DNA from: Escherichia coli
GTDB lineage: Bacteria > Pseudomonadota > Gammaproteobacteria > Enterobacterales > Enterobacteriaceae
Reading direction: 5' to 3' (one strand)
Assembly: GCF_016026235.1 (NCBI RefSeq)
Contig: NZ_CP065613.1
DNA length: 64,000 nt
Within the stretch, counting starts at the first letter, position 1. Each line of letters opens with the position of its first letter. The notes under the pieces are model-generated. The model saw only the letters and a list, made by a program, of their open reading frames with translations. It had not been told where the DNA came from and ran no database searches. The position numbers were made by a program, and so were the translations under genes. Shown here one piece after another: positions 3,575 to 62,907 of the stretch.

Positions 3575-4630
3575 GTGAAAAGTGCAATGACAAGCTCTCC
3601 GCTGCGGGTCGCGATAATAGGCGCAGGCCAAGTGGCGGATAAGGTTCATGCTTCGTACTACTGCACCCGCAACGATCTGGAACTGGTGGCTGTCTGTGAC
3701 AGCCGCCTTTCCCAGGCGCAGGCGCTGGCAGATAAATACGGTAATGCATCCGTGTGGGACGATCCGCAGGCCATGCTGCTGGCGGTGAAACCTGATGTGG
3801 TTAGCGTCTGCTCACCTAACCGTTTTCATTACGAACATACCCTGATGGCACTGGAAGCGGGCTGCCATGTGATGTGCGAAAAACCGCCCGCCATGACGCC
3901 AGAACAGGCGCGGGAAATGTGCGATACCGCGCGCAAACTGGGCAAGGTGCTGGCCTACGACTTTCACCATCGTTTTGCGCTCGATACGCAACAGCTGCGT
4001 GAACAGGTGACCAACGGCGTTTTGGGAGAGATTTACGTTACCACCGCCCGCGCCCTGCGTCGCTGCGGCGTTCCCGGCTGGGGCGTCTTTACCAATAAAG
4101 AACTGCAGGGTGGTGGCCCGCTGATCGACATCGGCATTCATATGCTGGATGCTGCGATGTATGTGCTGGGCTTTCCGGCGGTGAAAAGCGTGAATGCGCA
4201 TAGCTTTCAAAAGATCGGCACGCAAAAGAGCTGTGGTCAATTTGGCGAGTGGGATCCGGCAACTTATAGCGTCGAAGATTCGCTGTTTGGCACCATTGAA
4301 TTTCATAACGGCGGCATTCTGTGGCTGGAAACGTCATTTGCACTCAACATCCGCGAACAGTCGATTATGAACGTCAGCTTTTGTGGTGATAAAGCCGGTG
4401 CGACGCTGTTTCCAGCACATATCTACACCGATAACAACGGTGAATTAATGACGCTGATGCAACGGGAAATGGCAGACGACAACCGCCATTTGCGCAGCAT
4501 GGAAGCCTTTATCAATCACGTACAGGGCAAGCCCGTGATGATAGCCGACGCCGAGCAGGGGTACATCATCCAGCAACTGGTGGCGGCGTTGTATCAATCC
4601 GCAGAAACAGGGACGCGTGTGGAATTATGA
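3575..4630 (+). CDS. ycjS: Gfo/Idh/MocA-family NAD-dependent oxidoreductase
   Basis: 351-aa ORF, N-terminal Rossmann motif IIGAGQVA; synteny. Confidence 0.88.
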   Translation: MKSAMTSSPLRVAIIGAGQVADKVHASYYCTRNDLELVAVCDSRLSQAQALADKYGNASVWDDPQAMLLAVKPDVVSVCSPNRFHYEHTLMALEAGCHVMCEKPPAMTPEQAREMCDTARKLGKVLAYDFHHRFALDTQQLREQVTNGVLGEIYVTTARALRRCGVPGWGVFTNKELQGGGPLIDIGIHMLDAAMYVLGFPAVKSVNAHSFQKIGTQKSCGQFGEWDPATYSVEDSLFGTIEFHNGGILWLETSFALNIREQSIMNVSFCGDKAGATLFPAHIYTDNNGELMTLMQREMADDNRHLRSMEAFINHVQGKPVMIADAEQGYIIQQLVAALYQSAETGTRVEL

Positions 4631-57920: not shown

Positions 57921-58258
57921 GAAGGAAACAAAACAGAAACAGCAATTGCCGTTACCTGTTGTTACCATGGCAAGTAAACGTATCTCAGGCGAGCGCATTG
58001 CGCCGTTCTGACGCAGATAAACTAGCCTGGATAGATGGTGCTGGCAATAAAAAATAGCGTTTTCTTATCGGTGTCGGTAAGATTGCTGCGGGTGCTTGAG
58101 GCTGTCTGCCTCGGGCATGTCACTGTAAGGCAGACAGAGAAAAGCCCCAGTTAACATTACGCGTCCTGCAAGACGCTTAACATTAATCTGAGGCCCAATC
58201 TATGTCTCACAAATGTAGGTTAGCCTCTTACGTGCCGAAAGGCAAGGAGAAGCAGGCT

Positions 58259-58414
58259 ATGAAGCAGCAAAAGGCGATGTTAATCGCCCTGATCGTCATC
58301 TGTTTAACCGTCATTGTGACGGCACTGGTAACGAGGAAAGACCTCTGCGAGGTACGAATCCGAACCGGCCAGACGGAGGTCGCTGTCTTCGTAGACTACG
58401 AATCTAGAGAGTAA
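58259..58414 (+). CDS. Hok/Gef-family type I toxin
   Basis: MKQQKAMLIALIVICLTVIVTALVTRKDLCEVRIRTGQTEVAVFVDYESRE; aaggag RBS. Confidence 0.8.
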   Translation: MKQQKAMLIALIVICLTVIVTALVTRKDLCEVRIRTGQTEVAVFVDYESRE

Positions 58415-59576: not shown

Positions 59577-59866
59577 TGGTGGATTTACGTAAAGCGGCGC
59601 GGGGGCAGATGTGCACCGTCAGAATTCCTGGCTACTGCAATCACGATCCGGAAACGTCTGTGCTGGCGCATTACCGACTGGCGGGAACGTGCGGAACAGC
59701 GACAAAACCACACGATATGCAGGCGGCGATTGCCTGTAGCTCATGCCACGATTTAATCGACGGGCGGGTAAAAACAAGCGATTACACCAAAGAAGAATTA
59801 CGCCTGATACATGCAGAAGGTGTTTTTCGCACGCAAGAAATCTGGAGAAAGGAAGGTTATTTATGA
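59576..59866 (+). CDS. YbcO-like protein (DUF1364, putative nuclease)
   Basis: Cys-rich 96-aa ORF resembling DLP12 YbcO. Confidence 0.7.
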   Translation: MVDLRKAARGQMCTVRIPGYCNHDPETSVLAHYRLAGTCGTATKPHDMQAAIACSSCHDLIDGRVKTSDYTKEELRLIHAEGVFRTQEIWRKEGYL

Positions 59867-60417
59867 TTTACCCAACAAATACAGGCAAAAGCGGGGAACA
59901 CCTTCGTCTCACCACGCTGGAAAGTGTCTGGATTCAGGGAAAACTGCGCATGTGGGGGCGCTGGTCGTATATTGGCGGCGGTAAGACGGGGAATATGTTC
60001 AACCAGTTGTTGGCCTCTAAAAAGCTGACAAAAACGGCAATTAACGAGGCGCTCCGGAGGATGAAAAAAGCAGGTCTGGACAAACCTGAACTTGAGGCTT
60101 TTTTGCGGGATATGATCAACGGCAAGCAAAAAAGCTGGCTGGTGCATTGTACTGACGCAGAGGCGTTATGCATTGATCGGGTGATTAGTGAAGTGCTGGC
60201 AGAACACCCAGGATTGATTTGTATCCTCCGGCAACGATATGAAGGGAGTGGGATGACTAAGCGAAAAATGGCTGAATTGCTGAATGATTCACACCCTGAG
60301 TGGTGTTATCGGACGTGTTGCAGTCGGGTTGATGTATGGCTAAATCTTGCTGAATATATGCTCTATCTACCGATGCGTGATGCATTCTCTTCCGGGGATC
60401 TAAAAACCGTCTGTTGA
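59863..60417 (+). CDS. candidate late-gene antiterminator (Q-like by position)
   Basis: 185-aa ORF whose stop overlaps the -35 of a strong promoter followed by a terminator. Confidence 0.45.
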   Translation: MIYPTNTGKSGEHLRLTTLESVWIQGKLRMWGRWSYIGGGKTGNMFNQLLASKKLTKTAINEALRRMKKAGLDKPELEAFLRDMINGKQKSWLVHCTDAEALCIDRVISEVLAEHPGLICILRQRYEGSGMTKRKMAELLNDSHPEWCYRTCCSRVDVWLNLAEYMLYLPMRDAFSSGDLKTVC

Positions 60418-60443
60418 CTCAATCTGTTATCCGGGGCTATATT
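60414..60443 (+). promoter_or_regulatory. pR'-like late promoter
   Basis: TTGACT-18 bp-TATATT immediately after the Q-like stop. Confidence 0.5.
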
Positions 60444-60504
60444 CCTCACGCGCCAGCAAAATCTGGCGTCGGGATTGGCGTCCCGGATGTTTACGGAGCG
60501 ATAT

Positions 60505-60526
60505 GAGACGCGCCCGCGTCTTTTTT
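60505..60526 (+). terminator. tR'-like terminator
   Basis: gacgcgcccgcgtc hairpin plus T6, about 70 bp downstream of the promoter. Confidence 0.55.
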
Positions 60527-60689
60527 CATATCGTTTGCACAGTCTCATTCGCGATTTATGGCGGGCTGTGTGGGGGAGCCGAAAGGCTCGCCGGTTTCCG
60601 TACCCGGTTACGCCAACCCTGCACAGTTCGCCACCAGTTCGATTGGCGTCGTCGGTGGCGATAATTTCCAAATGTACGGAGTTATCGTT

Positions 60690-61247
60690 ATGACCACTCA
60701 AATCTCTGTTGAAACTCTCTCCCCGATCACCCATAACCAGATTCCTGTTATTACCACCGAACTTTTGGCGCAGCTTTACGGCACTGAGCCGGTGCGTATT
60801 CGCCAGAATCATCATGAGAACAAAGTACGCTTCGTTGAAGGGAAACACTTTTTCAAAGTTGTTGGTAATGACCTTAAAGAATTGCGGGTAGCTTTAAACT
60901 ACTCACAAAATCCCATCTCTCCCAAAGCCCGCTCCCTCATCCTCTGGACAGAACGAGGCGCAGCACGCCACGCCAAAATGCTCGAAACCGATCAGGCGTG
61001 GGATGTGTTCGAAAAACTGGAAGACTGCTATTTCAGTCAAAAGGATCCGTCAACGCCAGTTTCATGCCAGAAAAGTTACGACACGCGAGTTCTCTGTTAT
61101 CAGAGAGGCGGTGTCACTGTTTCCACAATTCAGTTACGGGATGATGATATTGTTATTTCCCTTGAGTCATGGCTGGAACTGGCGAGAGCCAATGGTTGGT
61201 TTGTTGTTCGCAGAGATAAACTGGTGGAAAGGTTGATGCAGCTTTAA
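60690..61247 (+). CDS. ORF6N-domain protein (KilA-N/Bro-N superfamily, antirepressor-like)
   Basis: ITTELLAQLYGTEPVRIRQNHHENKVRFVEGKHFFKVVGNDLKEL block; ggag RBS. Confidence 0.6.
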   Translation: MTTQISVETLSPITHNQIPVITTELLAQLYGTEPVRIRQNHHENKVRFVEGKHFFKVVGNDLKELRVALNYSQNPISPKARSLILWTERGAARHAKMLETDQAWDVFEKLEDCYFSQKDPSTPVSCQKSYDTRVLCYQRGGVTVSTIQLRDDDIVISLESWLELARANGWFVVRRDKLVERLMQL

Positions 61248-61344
61248 AAAAGTTCTTGCATTTTTGCACATAAACTGCTTCAATTCCGGTAAGCTTCGCA
61301 AAGCTGTATCGCGAGGCGAATAGCAGACATGGACATTTGAAAGA

Positions 61345-61367
61345 GCCCGCTTTATGCGGGTTTTTTT
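61345..61367 (+). terminator. rho-independent terminator
   Basis: agcccgctttatgcggg hairpin plus T7. Confidence 0.55.
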
Positions 61368-61455
61368 ATACCTGAAAAACGGCACAGGACGTTAAACGTG
61401 CTGGTGGTCAGATGAGTTTGCAGATGTGATGACATATGGTTATTATTCTGCCTCC

Positions 61456-61532
61456 GGCCCTTTAGCTCAGTTGGTCAGAGCGAGCGACTCATAATCGCCA
61501 GGTCGCTGGTTCAAGTCCAGCAAGGGCCACCA
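61456..61532 (+). tRNA. tRNA with anticodon CAT (Ile2/Met type)
   Basis: Manual cloverleaf: GGCCCTT acceptor, loop CTCATAA, T-arm GCTGG/CCAGC, CCA end. Confidence 0.8.
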
Positions 61533-61533
61533 A

Positions 61534-61610
61534 CCACCACTAGCTCATCCGGATAGAGCATCAACCTTCTAAGTTGACGGTGCGAGGTTCGAGTCCTCGG
61601 TGGTGGGCCA
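61534..61610 (+). tRNA. tRNA-Arg (anticodon TCT)
   Basis: Manual cloverleaf: CCACCAC acceptor, loop CTTCTAA, T-arm CGAGG/CCTCG, CCA end. Confidence 0.8.
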
Positions 61611-61612
61611 GC

Positions 61613-61688
<76 letters not shown>

Positions 61689-61691
61689 TAT

Positions 61692-61766
<75 letters not shown>

Positions 61767-62058: not shown

Positions 62059-62274
62059 ATGAAATCCATGGACAAAATTTCAACGGGCATTGCCTACGGC
62101 ACCTCCGCCGGCAGTGCCGGCTACTGGTTTTTGCAGTGGTTGGATCAGGTCAGTCCATCACAGTGGGCTGCGATTGGTGTGCTGGGAAGTCTGCTTCTGG
62201 GGCTTCTGACTTATCTGACGAATCTGTATTTCAAAATAAGAGAAGACAAGCGTAAGGCTGCACGGGGAGAGTAA
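62059..62274 (+). CDS. class II holin (phage 21 S-like pinholin) with dual-start motif
   Basis: [28 protein letters not shown]...; Met1 and Met4 starts; two TM segments. Confidence 0.85.
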
Positions 62275-62277
62275 ATA

Positions 62278-62907
62278 ATGAAGCATGAAGAAATGAATCA
62301 GCGATTCAATCACCTGGAAAATGAAATCACTGAGCTTAATAAAAAATTGTCGGCGTTGGTGAGTTCTGAAGATGAAAACAAACGCCGCGATGAGCATTAT
62401 GCGGCGATTTACGATTACTGCCACAAAGTCGCTCACGAGACTTTTATGAAGTTTTTGCAGGAAAAGTTTTTACCGGCCGCATTGTCAGAAAAAGAGGCGG
62501 CTTACCTGCGGCCTGAGTACGTCATTACGGTTAACAGTGCCGGAGAGGAAGAGCATAAAAGTGATTTTATTGCGTCTGCACCGGATAAAGACCAGGAACC
62601 CCGTCGGCCTTTCAGGGTTTCCTGTGAAGAGGGTGAGTTCGTCGTTTATGAGAACGGAAAACCTGTCCGGGCATCGCATCATCACTGCCTGAAAATTATT
62701 AATCTCGCTATCAGATGCCTGAAAGACGAAAACACCAGAGTTATGAAACGCATTGGCCGTTGCATGGGGTATTTGCAGGTGGCGGCAGAGATTGAAGCAC
62801 TTGCCAGTGGTGCAGACATGGATGCTGCGGTGCGGGAGGCTCTTCTTCGTGATTTCAATACTCCCCCTTTAAGAAAGAGCCTGATGACTGGATCCAGCCG
62901 GGGCTGA
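62278..62907 (+). CDS. hypothetical protein (209 aa) between holin and endolysin
   Basis: Uninterrupted ORF starting 4 bp after the holin stop; coiled-coil N-terminus, no TM segment, no recognised domain. Confidence 0.6.
   Translation: MKHEEMNQRFNHLENEITELNKKLSALVSSEDENKRRDEHYAAIYDYCHKVAHETFMKFLQEKFLPAALSEKEAAYLRPEYVITVNSAGEEEHKSDFIASAPDKDQEPRRPFRVSCEEGEFVVYENGKPVRASHHHCLKIINLAIRCLKDENTRVMKRIGRCMGYLQVAAEIEALASGADMDAAVREALLRDFNTPPLRKSLMTGSSRG

What the first reader, a model, noticed from the sequence alone, without database searches (positions are those of the whole stretch)
60414..60528. Strong promoter and terminator immediately after the Q-like gene
TTGACT-18 bp-TATATT overlaps the stop of the 185-aa gene, followed about 60 nt later by a GC hairpin and T6. 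This matches the pR'/qut/tR' layout that gives a short terminated late RNA unless Q modifies RNA polymerase, and it supports calling the upstream gene the antiterminator although its sequence is not lambda-Q-like.
Basis: partly seen in the sequence, partly recalled or inferred. Interest (0 to 1): 0.3.

Follow-up and report, generated by a model that had tools for sequence, protein, structure and literature searches.

The report
IsrK/C4 antirepressor cassette after Q
The promoter and terminator are real, but they make a known prophage small RNA (IsrK) that heads an antisense-RNA switch for an antirepressor gene; this cassette sits between a phage-21-type antiterminator gene and what looks like that gene's own late promoter about 850 bases further on.

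Summary
TTGACT(60414-19)-18 bp-TATATT(60438-43) overlaps the TGA stop of a 184-aa gene, and a GC hairpin plus T6 follows at 60505-60526.

The upstream gene is a Q-type antiterminator: Pfam DUF1133, profile match to the Q21 structure at E 1.5e-8, and a predicted fold that matches only Q21.

The promoter-terminator unit, however, is a full-length IsrK sRNA gene (Rfam RF01394, 75.6 bits). It overlaps a c4-a1b1 motif and is followed by a C4-type antisense RNA (60554-60638) and an ORF6N antirepressor gene (60690-61247). The same cassette, with the same promoter, follows an unrelated Q82-type gene in Gifsy-1. In Stx phage PA28 it lies 2.8 kb upstream of Q.

In 44 related prophages without the cassette, the DUF1133 gene is followed directly by another conserved unit. 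In this window that unit lies at 61256-61367. It has a phage-21-like layout: a promoter, the pause hexamer TAAGCT, a terminator, then tRNAs and an S21-type holin. Its -35/spacer sequence tracks the recognition-helix class of the Q protein, whereas the IsrK promoter does not change.

The finding is a known kind of element. The likely true late promoter lies 850 bp downstream.

The parts
59863..60417 (+). Q21-type antiterminator homologue (Pfam DUF1133), 184 aa. The presumed DNA-recognition helix lies around residues 150-167 (RTCCSRVDVWLNLAEYMLY).
   Evidence: Pfam DUF1133 at E 1e-105 and PF06530 at 26.4 bits against a cut-off of 26. PHROG 753 'anti-termination protein Q-like' at E 5e-79. The profile of alignment A1 hits Q21 chains 6jnx/6p18 at E 1.5e-8. 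The ten best Foldseek hits of the AF2 model are all Q21 chains, probability 1.0, TM 0.57-0.64.
60414..60443 (+). IsrK-type sigma-70 promoter: -35 TTGACT 60414-19 (contains the TGA stop of the Q-like gene), 18-bp spacer, -10 TATATT 60438-43.
   Evidence: Homologous to the Gifsy-1 isrK promoter (TTGACA-18-TATATT) and to the PA28 copy (TTGACG-18-TATATT). Identical in 37 of 39 related loci. Promoter activity of the Salmonella homologue was measured (PMC4825925, Table 1A).
60450..60526 (+). IsrK-like sRNA: hairpin 1 at 60450-69, hairpin 2 carrying b1 (GGGAUUGGCGU) at 60470-85, a1 (UACGGAG) at 60492-98, and the intrinsic terminator at 60505-22 with a U-run to 60526.
   Evidence: Rfam RF01394 at 75.6 bits, positions 1-77 of 77. 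c4-a1b1 RF03163 at 52.2 bits on 60437-60489. Fold. a1 and b1 located.
60554..60638 (+). C4-type antisense RNA: a' loop UUCCGUAC at 60596-603 and b' ACGCCAACCC at 60610-19.
   Evidence: Rfam RF01695 at 77.6 bits, positions 1-87 of 87. Fold at -45.9 kcal/mol, z = -4.6.
60641..60681 (+). C4 target in the antirepressor leader: b2 GAUUGGCGU at 60641-49, and a2 GUACGGAG at 60674-81, which contains the Shine-Dalgarno GGAG of the ORF6N gene.
   Evidence: Complementarity to a' and b'. a', a1 and a2 change together in five cassette types.
60690..61247 (+). ORF6N-domain antirepressor, 185 aa, homologue of Gifsy-1 AnrP.
   Evidence: Pfam ORF6N at E 3e-20. PHROG 2379 'anti-repressor' at E 3e-94. 56% identity to Gifsy-1 STM2616/AnrP at E 1e-65.
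61256..61321 (+). Candidate cognate late promoter of the Q-like gene ('element B'): TTGCAT 61256-61, 17 bp, TGcTTCAAT 61276-84, -10-like TAAGCT 61290-95 (the same hexamer as the phage-21 pause element), AAAGCT 61300-05, and an invariant transcribed segment to 61321.
   Evidence: It directly follows the DUF1133 gene in 44 of 44 cassette-less loci and lies after the cassette in 34 loci. Its -35/spacer class matches the Q helix class in 78 of 78 loci. The layout was compared with the curated phage 21 pR'. The transcription start is not determined.
61343..61367 (+). Intrinsic terminator of element B (candidate tR').
   Evidence: Fold of 61289-61370 at -30.2 kcal/mol, z = -4.1, 0 of 200 shuffles as stable. 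Related loci carry different hairpin sequences, always followed by a T-run.
61456..61766 (+). Four tRNA genes (Met, Arg, Thr, Gly) between the candidate tR' and the lysis genes, in the position tRNAs occupy in phage 21.
   Evidence: Phage 21 layout.
62059..62274 (+). S21-type holin, first lysis (late) gene downstream.
   Evidence: Pfam PF04971 'Bacteriophage P21 holin S' at E 1e-35.

Best explanation
The flagged promoter and terminator are the gene for an IsrK-type small RNA. It is the first part of a self-contained cassette, about 840 bp long (60414 to about 61250): promoter, IsrK, C4-type antisense RNA, antirepressor gene.

Proposed mechanism, with the basis for each step:
- The promoter fires constitutively in the lysogen. 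Most transcripts stop at the hairpin/T6 and give a ~77-nt IsrK. Some read through. (Shown for the Gifsy-1 homologue; inferred here.)
- Read-through RNA contains the C4-like RNA. Its loop a' and single strand b' pair with a2/b2 over the Shine-Dalgarno site of the ORF6N antirepressor and keep it untranslated. (Pairing and three-way co-variation shown here; repression inferred from the P1/P7 c4 paradigm.)
- IsrK carries copies of the same two targets (a1, b1). It therefore acts as a decoy that titrates C4, or opens the folded leader, and turns antirepressor translation on. (Consistent with the Gifsy-1 genetics; inferred here.)
- Antirepressor then inactivates the prophage repressor, and early transcription reaches the Q-like gene. 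(Supported by the Gifsy-1 data; inferred here.)

The cassette is inserted between a phage-21-type Q gene (DUF1133) and that Q's own late promoter-pause-terminator unit, which now lies at 61256-61367 in front of the tRNAs and the S21-type lysis genes. The Q protein most likely loads there, not at the flagged promoter (inferred).
For: 1. Identity. Three Rfam families score above their gathering scores, full length and in the canonical order: c4-a1b1 (60437-89, 52.2 bits), isrK (60450-526, 75.6 bits) and C4 (60554-638, 77.6 bits). An ORF6N antirepressor 56% identical to AnrP follows.

2. Antisense logic. The C4 loop is complementary both to a site in IsrK and to the antirepressor Shine-Dalgarno region, and the three sites change together in five cassette types: window TTCCGTAC/TACGGAG/GTACGGAG; Gifsy-1 TCGGTGAT/TCACCG/ATCACCGG; PA28 CCTTTTTC/GAAAAAGG/GAAAAAGGA; L020 type TGTTTCGA/TCGAAACG/TCGAAACG; L019 type CGGTTTC/GAGACCG/GAAACC (the L019-type a2 GAAACC was read by eye from the leader printed, whose automatic best match for that leader was a different 6-mer).

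3. Independence from Q. The same promoter and RNAs follow a Q82-type gene in Gifsy-1. In Stx phage PA28 they sit in the nin region, 2.8 kb upstream of a Q933W-type gene.

4. Insertion. In all 39 loci that have the 184-aa CCSRVDVW- or CRNRIDAW-class variant, the IsrK promoter sits at the stop codon, and element B reappears 880-940 nt later in 34 of them. All 44 loci without the cassette have element B directly after the stop.

5. Cognate site. The four recognition-helix classes of the protein pair one-to-one with four -35/spacer classes of element B in 78 of 78 loci. This holds across at least 10 cassette clusters, and one cassette cluster occurs with both helix classes. The IsrK promoter is the same in both cassette-bearing helix classes.

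6. Layout. Element B followed by a terminator, tRNAs and an S21-type holin mirrors the curated phage 21 pR' (QBE in the spacer, pause element TAAGCTG just after the start, tR', tRNAs, S21).

7. Parallel case. In Gifsy-1 the IsrJ promoter that follows anrP directly abuts Q82-type genes in two phages that lack the cassette.

8. Experiments on the Gifsy-1 homologue. These show promoter activity, the short and long isoforms, IsrK pairing with the 'orf45'/STnc1160 region, AnrP-dependent antQ induction and prophage induction (PMC4825925).
Against: No transcription data exist for this window. Neither the start at 60450 nor any start in element B has been mapped.

The element B -10 candidate TTCAAT lacks the usual A at position 2. 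Its promoter register is ambiguous, because TAAGCT could itself be the -10.

No clear 8-bp direct-repeat Q-binding element like that of phage 21 is visible in the element B spacer.

The helix/spacer association rests on only four classes and could partly reflect shared ancestry of the flanking backbone.

The IsrK transcript has a -10-like CAAAAT at +8 to +13, so a sigma-dependent pause, and thus some Q action at this promoter, cannot be excluded. One paper (PMC7547250) describes IsrK as coming from an antitermination-regulated promoter.

The decoy role of IsrK is an inference. The Gifsy-1 authors interpret their data as refolding of the leader rather than C4 titration, and constitutive STnc1160 did not relieve IsrK toxicity in their hands.
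Confidence: 0.78

Rival explanations
1. The unit at 60414-60526 is the late promoter pR' with its qut site and tR'. The 184-aa Q protein loads on polymerase paused just after this promoter and carries it through the hairpin, the antirepressor gene and all later terminators into the lysis genes. IsrK is simply the '6S-like' by-product.
For: It sits immediately after a genuine Q-type gene, with the -35 overlapping the stop codon, as pR' does in phage 21. It gives a short terminated RNA. A -10-like CAAAAT lies at +8 to +13. The 184-aa cassette-linked variants differ from the 180-aa variants in the recognition-helix region. PMC7547250 calls IsrK's promoter antitermination-regulated.
Against: The promoter, spacer and transcribed region are the same behind two different recognition-helix classes of this Q and behind an unrelated Q82-type protein. 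They also occur with no adjacent Q gene in PA28. Every conserved base downstream of the start is accounted for by the RNA structure and the a1/b1 targets. A second unit that does co-vary with Q is retained intact downstream.
Confidence: 0.1
2. Dual use. Q loads at element B, but insertion at this exact site is adaptive because transcripts entering from upstream (early rightward transcription through the Q gene) override the IsrK terminator. That would change the IsrK:C4 ratio and couple antirepressor output to induction. Q itself might also act weakly at the IsrK promoter.
For: The cassette occupies the same Q|pR' junction in two unrelated Q systems. The long Gifsy-1 transcript runs from isrK to the isrJ terminator (PMC4825925).
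Against: The same cassette works from the nin region in Stx phages, so the junction is not required. No data bear on transcription entering from upstream.
Confidence: 0.1
3. Chance promoter-like and terminator-like matches with no function.
For: The counts of such sites in 56-64 kb equal those of shuffled sequence.
Against: A full-length Rfam match at E 2e-16, conservation across 39 loci, compensatory changes in the terminator and in a1, and experimental data on the homologue (PMC4825925).
Confidence: 0.01

Closest known systems
isrK-orf45(STnc1160)-anrP-isrJ locus of Salmonella prophage Gifsy-1 (Hershko-Shalev et al. 2016, PMC4825925; Padalon-Brauch et al. 2008, PMC2330248)
   Same: The promoter is homologous from the -35 onward. 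There is a 77-nt IsrK with the same two 5' hairpins and a terminator, a C4-like RNA, an ORF6N antirepressor (56% identity), then a second short promoter-terminator unit, tRNA(s) and lysis genes. The cassette sits directly after a Q gene.
   Different: The upstream Q is of another family (Q82-type AntQ there, Q21-type DUF1133 here). The a'/a1/a2 specificity sequences differ. The unit after the antirepressor is IsrJ there and the unrelated element B here. Here the ORF over the C4 RNA runs in frame into the antirepressor gene.
immI region of phages P1 and P7: c4 antisense RNA with a1/b1 and a2/b2 targets controlling icd-ant (established knowledge: Citron and Schuster 1990; Biere, Citron and Schuster 1992; Rfam RF01695 and RF03163; Weinberg et al. 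2010, PMC2864571)
   Same: The order is promoter, a1/b1, C4 RNA, a2/b2 over a ribosome-binding site, antirepressor. Specificity is set by short complementary loops that differ between phages.
   Different: Here a1/b1 are released as a separate terminated sRNA (IsrK). The antirepressor is ORF6N-type rather than P1 Ant. No icd-like ORF was identified. The host is a lambdoid prophage.
Phage P4 CI RNA with seqA/seqC (same Rfam clan CL00128 as C4)
   Same: A processed antisense RNA lies between two copies of its own target on one transcript. The Gifsy-1 authors noted the likeness.
   Different: P4 CI causes transcription termination of replication genes. Here the target overlaps a Shine-Dalgarno site, which suggests translational control.
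Phage 21 Q-pR'-QBE-SDPE-tR' cassette (Yin, Kaelber and Ebright 2019, bioRxiv 10.1101/651190; annotation of OL657228)
   Same: The gene before the finding is a Q21-fold protein. Element B at 61256-61367 shares the layout: a -35 just after or overlapping the Q stop in cassette-less relatives, TAAGCT after the -10, a short terminated RNA, tRNAs, then S21 holin, endolysin and Rz.
   Different: The flagged unit (60414-60526) shows no Q-specific feature. Element B has no obvious 8-bp direct repeat, and the protein has a shorter loop in the helix-turn[loop]-helix region.
Lambda 6S RNA and StxS (Sy et al. 2020, PMC7547250): short RNAs from pR' terminated at tR'
   Same: A short, constitutively made, terminated RNA lies next to a Q gene, and it can have an sRNA function.
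   Different: Those RNAs start at the Q-loading promoter. IsrK starts at a cassette promoter that is found independently of Q.

Membership tests
Rfam isrK (RF01394) | Covariance-model score at or above the gathering score, full-length match | tested here: met
   75.6 bits against 50, model positions 1-77 of 77, at 60450-60526.
Rfam isrK (RF01394) | Own sigma-70 promoter and intrinsic terminator giving a ~77-nt RNA | tested here: inconclusive
   A promoter lies 7 nt upstream of model position 1 and a terminator at the 3' end. The transcript itself has been observed only for the Salmonella homologue (PMC2330248, PMC4825925).
C4 antisense RNA system (RF01695 with c4-a1b1 RF03163; P1/P7 immI type) | C4 RNA and a1/b1 motif both above gathering score, in the order a1b1 then C4 | tested here: met
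   C4 at 77.6 bits against 45 (60554-60638). c4-a1b1 at 52.2 bits against 46.7 (60437-60489).
C4 antisense RNA system | C4 loops complementary to an upstream target and to a downstream target over the ribosome-binding site of the controlled gene, co-varying between phages | tested here: met
   a' 60596-603 pairs with a1 60492-98 and with a2 60674-81 (which includes the GGAG). b' 60610-19 pairs with b1 and b2. Three-way co-variation is seen in five cassette types.
C4 antisense RNA system | Controlled gene is an antirepressor | tested here: met
   ORF6N domain, PHROG 'anti-repressor' at E 3e-94, 56% identity to AnrP. Antirepressor activity is shown only for AnrP (PMC4825925).
C4 antisense RNA system | C4 represses translation, and the decoy relieves it | not testable with these tools
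   Needs translational fusions with compensatory mutations.
Q-dependent late unit (pR'/QBE/SDPE/tR') - applied to the flagged unit 60414-60526 | Lies directly after the Q gene | tested here: met
   The -35 overlaps the stop codon of the Q-type gene.
Q-dependent late unit - flagged unit | Promoter region carries a binding element specific to the adjacent Q, so promoter and Q type go together | tested here: not met
   The same promoter occurs with two recognition-helix classes of DUF1133 Q, with an unrelated Q82-type protein, and with no adjacent Q gene in PA28.
Q-dependent late unit - flagged unit | -10-like sigma-dependent pause element in the first ~25 transcribed bases | tested here: inconclusive
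   CAAAAT at +8 to +13 (60457-62) matches 4 of 6 positions, but it is the conserved loop of IsrK hairpin 1.
Q-dependent late unit - flagged unit | Intrinsic terminator before the late genes | tested here: met
   Hairpin at 60505-22 plus T6. The next gene, however, is an antirepressor, and a second terminator follows at 61343-67.
Q-dependent late unit - applied to element B 61256-61367 | Directly follows the Q gene where nothing is inserted | tested here: met
   44 of 44 cassette-less DUF1133 loci.
Q-dependent late unit - element B | Promoter sequence co-varies with the Q DNA-recognition region | tested here: met
   Four helix classes pair with four -35/spacer classes, 78 of 78 loci, independent of the cassette type in between. 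Only four classes exist, so ancestry is not excluded.
Q-dependent late unit - element B | Functional sigma-70 promoter, pause element and terminator | tested here: inconclusive
   TTGCAT-17-TGcTTCAAT, where the -10 lacks A at position 2. TAAGCT is identical to the phage 21 pause hexamer. The terminator has z = -4.1. No transcription-start data exist.
Q21/Q933W antiterminator family (PF06530) - the 184-aa protein | Sequence and fold homology to Q21 | tested here: met
   PF06530 at 26.4 bits against a cut-off of 26. Profile against PDB hits Q21 at E 1.5e-8 over residues 95-180, plus the N-terminal WLxGxLxxWGxW motif. The ten best Foldseek hits are all Q21 chains and the next hit has E > 1. The model is of low confidence overall (pLDDT 59.7; 70-94 for residues 110-175).
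Q21/Q933W antiterminator family - the 184-aa protein | Antitermination activity | not testable with these tools
   Needs in vitro transcription or a reporter assay.

The most novel reading that the evidence does not exclude
DUF1133 proteins are a distinct branch of Q21-fold antiterminators with their own, so far undescribed, late promoter/qut unit (element B). That unit has TTGnnn-17-TGcTTCAAT, tandem -10-like hexamers TAnGCT and AAAGCT, an invariant 32-nt start of the transcript and an exchangeable terminator. Its -35-proximal spacer co-evolves with the protein's recognition helix.

C4-type antirepressor cassettes have repeatedly landed exactly at the Q|pR' junction of unrelated Q systems. 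It follows that IsrJ, not IsrK, is the pR'-tR' RNA of Gifsy-1, and that IsrK's published description as a product of an antitermination-regulated promoter needs revising.
Probability: 0.55. Interest if true: 0.45.

Novelty: new member of a known kind. Interest (0 to 1): 0.3.

Why it matters
For annotation, a promoter and terminator right after a Q gene is not enough to call pR'/tR'. Here that rule would mislabel a small-RNA gene and miss the probable late promoter 850 bp downstream.

For phage biology, the window gives an E. coli counterpart of the Salmonella IsrK switch. It shows by three-way co-variation that the switch is a C4-type antisense system with exchangeable specificity, which is a form of heteroimmunity for antirepressor control.

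It also provides a testable candidate qut site for DUF1133 antiterminators. Sequence relatives of this query turned up in about a third of complete E. coli genomes (1801 of 5426).

Tried and rejected
1. Whole-length RNAduplex of IsrK or the leader against C4 was not informative. The observed energies fell inside the shuffle distribution (62 of 300 and 38 of 300 shuffles were as good), because long GC-rich RNAs pair non-specifically. I replaced it with a search for contiguous complementarity to the C4 loop across cassette types.

2. phmmer of the single protein against PDB gave only E 0.05 to Q21. The exhaustive representative search found a small family (71 clusters, mostly fragments) and did not reach Q21 relatives. 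The profile search and the fold search settled the homology.

3. I looked for a phage-21-like pair of 8-bp direct repeats (Q-binding element) in both promoters by eye. There was nothing convincing. The window variant has TTGCAT..TTGCAC, but the other classes lack a repeat.

4. tblastn of lambda Q, Q21, Q933W and Q82-type proteins against the whole window found no second Q gene.

5. A literature search for DUF1133/PF06576 found nothing about the family.

6. The alternative promoter registers for element B (TAAACT or TAAGCT as the -10) lack a plausible -35. They are not excluded, only less likely.
Full report
**1. The observation.** The window reads TTGACT (60414-19), an 18-bp spacer, then TATATT (60438-43). 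The TGA stop of a 184-aa ORF (59863-60417) lies inside the -35 hexamer. Sixty-one bases after the -10 comes the hairpin GAGACGCGCCCGCGTCTT (60505-22), followed by a T6 run to 60526. The hairpin folds at -11.6 kcal/mol with z = -5.2. Consensus matching alone is not significant: promoter-like and terminator-like sites in 56-64 kb are as frequent as in shuffled sequence. Homology is what makes the pair real.

**2. What it is.**
- Rfam places three families here, all full length and above their gathering scores: c4-a1b1 (60437-89, 52.2 bits), isrK (60450-526, 75.6 bits, model positions 1-77 of 77) and C4 antisense RNA (60554-638, 77.6 bits).
- The isrK match begins 7 nt after the -10, where a start is expected.
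- The next gene (60690-61247) is an ORF6N antirepressor, 56% identical to AnrP of Gifsy-1.
- This is the isrK locus described in Salmonella prophage Gifsy-1. There the promoter was shown to be active, to give a 77-nt terminated IsrK plus a read-through mRNA, and to control AnrP translation through pairing of IsrK with the 'orf45'/STnc1160 region (PMC4825925; PMC2330248).
- Rfam confirms the same triplet in Gifsy-1 and in Stx phage PA28.

**3. How the cassette works.**
- The C4-like RNA folds into the family's shape at -45.9 kcal/mol, z = -4.6. This leaves a hairpin loop a' (UUCCGUAC, 60596-603) and a single-stranded b' (ACGCCAACCC, 60610-19).
- a' is complementary to GUACGGAG (60674-81), which contains the GGAG Shine-Dalgarno of the antirepressor gene, and to UACGGAG (60492-98) inside IsrK.
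- b' matches GAUUGGCGU both in the leader (60641-49) and in IsrK hairpin 2 (60471-81).
- Across five cassette types the loop, the IsrK site and the Shine-Dalgarno-proximal site change together. This three-way co-variation is direct evidence for the pairings.
- By analogy with P1/P7 c4 (established knowledge), C4 blocks antirepressor translation. IsrK carries the same targets, so it would compete for C4 or open the leader. This fits the Gifsy-1 finding that IsrK in trans raises AnrP translation more than 100-fold.
- The pairings are shown here. The regulatory outcome is inferred.

**4. The upstream gene is a Q protein.** Pfam calls it DUF1133 (E 1e-105), with a marginal PF06530 hit (26.4 bits against a cut-off of 26). 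PF06530 is the Q21/Q933W family according to Yin et al.. A profile of 25 family members hits the Q21 chains in PDB at E 1.5e-8, covering the N-terminal WLxGxLxxWGxW motif and residues 95-180, including the helix-turn[loop]-helix region. The AlphaFold model is weak overall (pLDDT 59.7; 70-94 for residues 110-175). Even so, its ten best Foldseek hits are all Q21 structures (probability 1.0, TM 0.57-0.64) and the next hit has E > 1. PHROGs agrees. No lambda-, 82-, 933W- or 21-type Q gene lies elsewhere in the window.

**5. The flagged unit is not specific to this Q.**
- In Gifsy-1 the homologous promoter (TTGACA-18-TATATT, with the same spacer GTTATCCGGGGC) follows a Q82-type AntQ that shares no similarity with the DUF1133 protein.
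- In Stx phage PA28 the same promoter (TTGACG-18-TATATT), IsrK, C4 and an antirepressor sit in the nin region, 2.8 kb upstream of the Q933W-type gene. About 160 other Stx-phage records give the same partial match; only PA28 was inspected.
- Among 39 loci with the 184-aa cassette-linked variants (CCSRVDVW or CRNRIDAW), two different recognition-helix classes occur, yet the IsrK promoter is the same.
- A Q-binding element must be specific to its Q, so this defining feature of pR' is not met.

**6. Where the cognate unit is.**
- I collected 80 viral contigs and 3 E. coli loci encoding DUF1133 proteins.
- All 44 loci without the cassette have, directly at the stop codon, a conserved 'element B'. 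It consists of TTGnnn, 17 bp ending in TGc, TTCAAT, 5 bp, TAnGCT, then the invariant TCGCAAAGCTGTAyCGCGAGGCGAA, a variable stretch, and an intrinsic terminator whose sequence differs between loci.
- All 39 loci with the 184-aa cassette-linked variants have the IsrK promoter at the stop. Element B reappears 880-940 nt downstream, right after the antirepressor gene, in 34 of them; the other loci end early or differ.
- In the window, element B is at 61256-61321 and its terminator at 61343-67 (z = -4.1). Four tRNAs follow, then an S21-type holin, endolysin and Rz.
- The curated phage 21 record shows the same order: Q, a -35 seven bases after the stop, the Q-binding element in the spacer, the -10, the start, the pause element TAAGCTG, tR', two tRNAs and S21. 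TAAGCT is the same hexamer in both.

**7. Co-variation with the protein.** The segment that aligns with the second helix of the Q21 helix-turn[loop]-helix occurs in four classes: CEKRIANW, CCSRVDVW, CRNRIDAW and CERRIEHW. Each goes with its own version of the element-B -35 and first ten spacer bases:

| Recognition-helix class | Element-B -35 + spacer start |
|---|---|
| CEKRIANW | TTGATT-TyTTACGyrT |
| CCSRVDVW | TTGCAT-TTTTGCACAT |
| CRNRIDAW | TTGCAA-TTTTAGCCAT |
| CERRIEHW | TTGCTT-TTTGACGTAA |

There is no exception in 78 loci. The link holds although the cassette between them falls into at least ten sequence clusters. One cluster occurs with both helix classes, and element B follows the helix, not the cassette. 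Terminators to the right of the invariant segment are shuffled among classes, so recombination is frequent here. With only four classes, shared ancestry cannot be excluded, but the pattern is what a Q/Q-binding-element pair predicts.

**8. A parallel in Gifsy-1.** After anrP comes TTGCAA-17-TATATT and the 74-nt IsrJ, which has its own promoter (PMC2330248; Rfam isrJ 100 bits). The same promoter and the first ~50-90 nt of its transcript directly abut or overlap the 3' end of Q82-type genes (60-69% identical to AntQ) in Klebsiella phage ST11-VIM1phi8.1 and E. coli phage PhiR47_2. Both lack the cassette, and in PhiR47_2 only 310 bp separate Q from the holin gene. The same kind of cassette therefore sits between Q and the -35 of the likely pR' in two unrelated Q systems. 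IsrJ, rather than IsrK, looks like the pR'-tR' RNA of Gifsy-1. This differs from a remark in PMC7547250 and is an inference, not a demonstrated fact.

**9. Caveats.**
- No transcript ends are known for this window.
- Element B's -10 candidate TTCAAT lacks A at position 2. The upstream TG may compensate, or TAAGCT may be the real -10 with AAAGCT (61300-05) as the pause element.
- No clear direct-repeat Q-binding element is visible.
- CAAAAT at +8 to +13 of IsrK could act as a pause element, so weak Q action there is not excluded.
- The Gifsy-1 authors explain IsrK action by leader refolding rather than C4 titration, and their co-expression test of STnc1160 did not support simple titration.

**10. 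Verdict.** The gene call is supported by other evidence. The pR'/qut/tR' reading of these coordinates is not supported. The feature is an E. coli-prophage member of the known IsrK/C4 antirepressor cassette. The modest added value lies in the insertion model and in the candidate late promoter of DUF1133-type Q proteins at 61256-61367.

Noticed in passing
window 58090-58414: hok/sok type I toxin-antitoxin: Rfam sok RF01794 at 118 bits on 58090-58264, and a Hok-like ORF (MKQQKAMLIALIVICLTVIVTALVTRKDLCEVRIRTGQTEVAVFVDYESRE) within 58202-58414.
   Followed up: no
window 61417-61766: Four tRNA genes (Met-CAT, Arg-TCT, Thr-TGT, Gly-TCC) are preceded by their own promoter-like site, TTTGCA-18-TATTAT (61417-46). 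They might therefore be expressed in the lysogen independently of late transcription.
   Followed up: no
window 60558-61247: An ATG at 60558 opens an ORF that overlaps the C4 RNA and here continues in frame into the antirepressor gene (229-aa ORF). In Gifsy-1 the equivalent 'orf45' is a separate, translationally coupled ORF whose nucleotide sequence, but not its peptide, is conserved. That fits the region being primarily an RNA.
   Followed up: partly
window 61279-61321: Element B carries three -10-like hexamers at a 10-11 nt period (TTCAAT 61279, TAAGCT 61290, AAAGCT 61300). An invariant segment, TCGCAAAGCTGTATCGCGAGGCGAA, follows. Why these 32 nt are invariant while the rest of the short RNA is exchangeable is unexplained. 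Rfam has no family for it; only a 19.9-bit isrK-like hit was found at 61293-61366.
   Followed up: partly
window 59863-60417 (nt 445 of the gene, about 60307): Megablast similarity of the Q-like gene to most E. coli prophages stops at nt 445 (about aa 148), the start of the helix-turn[loop]-helix-like region. This is a mosaic joint inside the gene that separates a conserved N-terminal part from variable DNA-recognition parts.
   Followed up: partly
window 59863-60700 versus PP818812.1: 'Actinobacillus phage vB_Apl-pPE4' is 96% identical over the whole Q-IsrK-C4 region. That is an unexpected host label for a module otherwise seen in E. coli and Salmonella prophages.
   Followed up: no
window 62278-62907: A 209-aa gene sits between the S21-type holin and the endolysin. 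It has no Pfam match and only PHROG 1085 (unknown function). It is an unusual occupant of a lysis cassette.
   Followed up: no
L001 (Gifsy-1) 3841-3947; L088 1495-1600; L089 1495-1600: The IsrJ promoter (TTGCAA-17-TATATT) and the 5' part of IsrJ directly follow or overlap Q82-type genes in phages that lack the IsrK cassette. This suggests IsrJ is the pR'-tR' transcript of Q82-type phages.
   Followed up: partly
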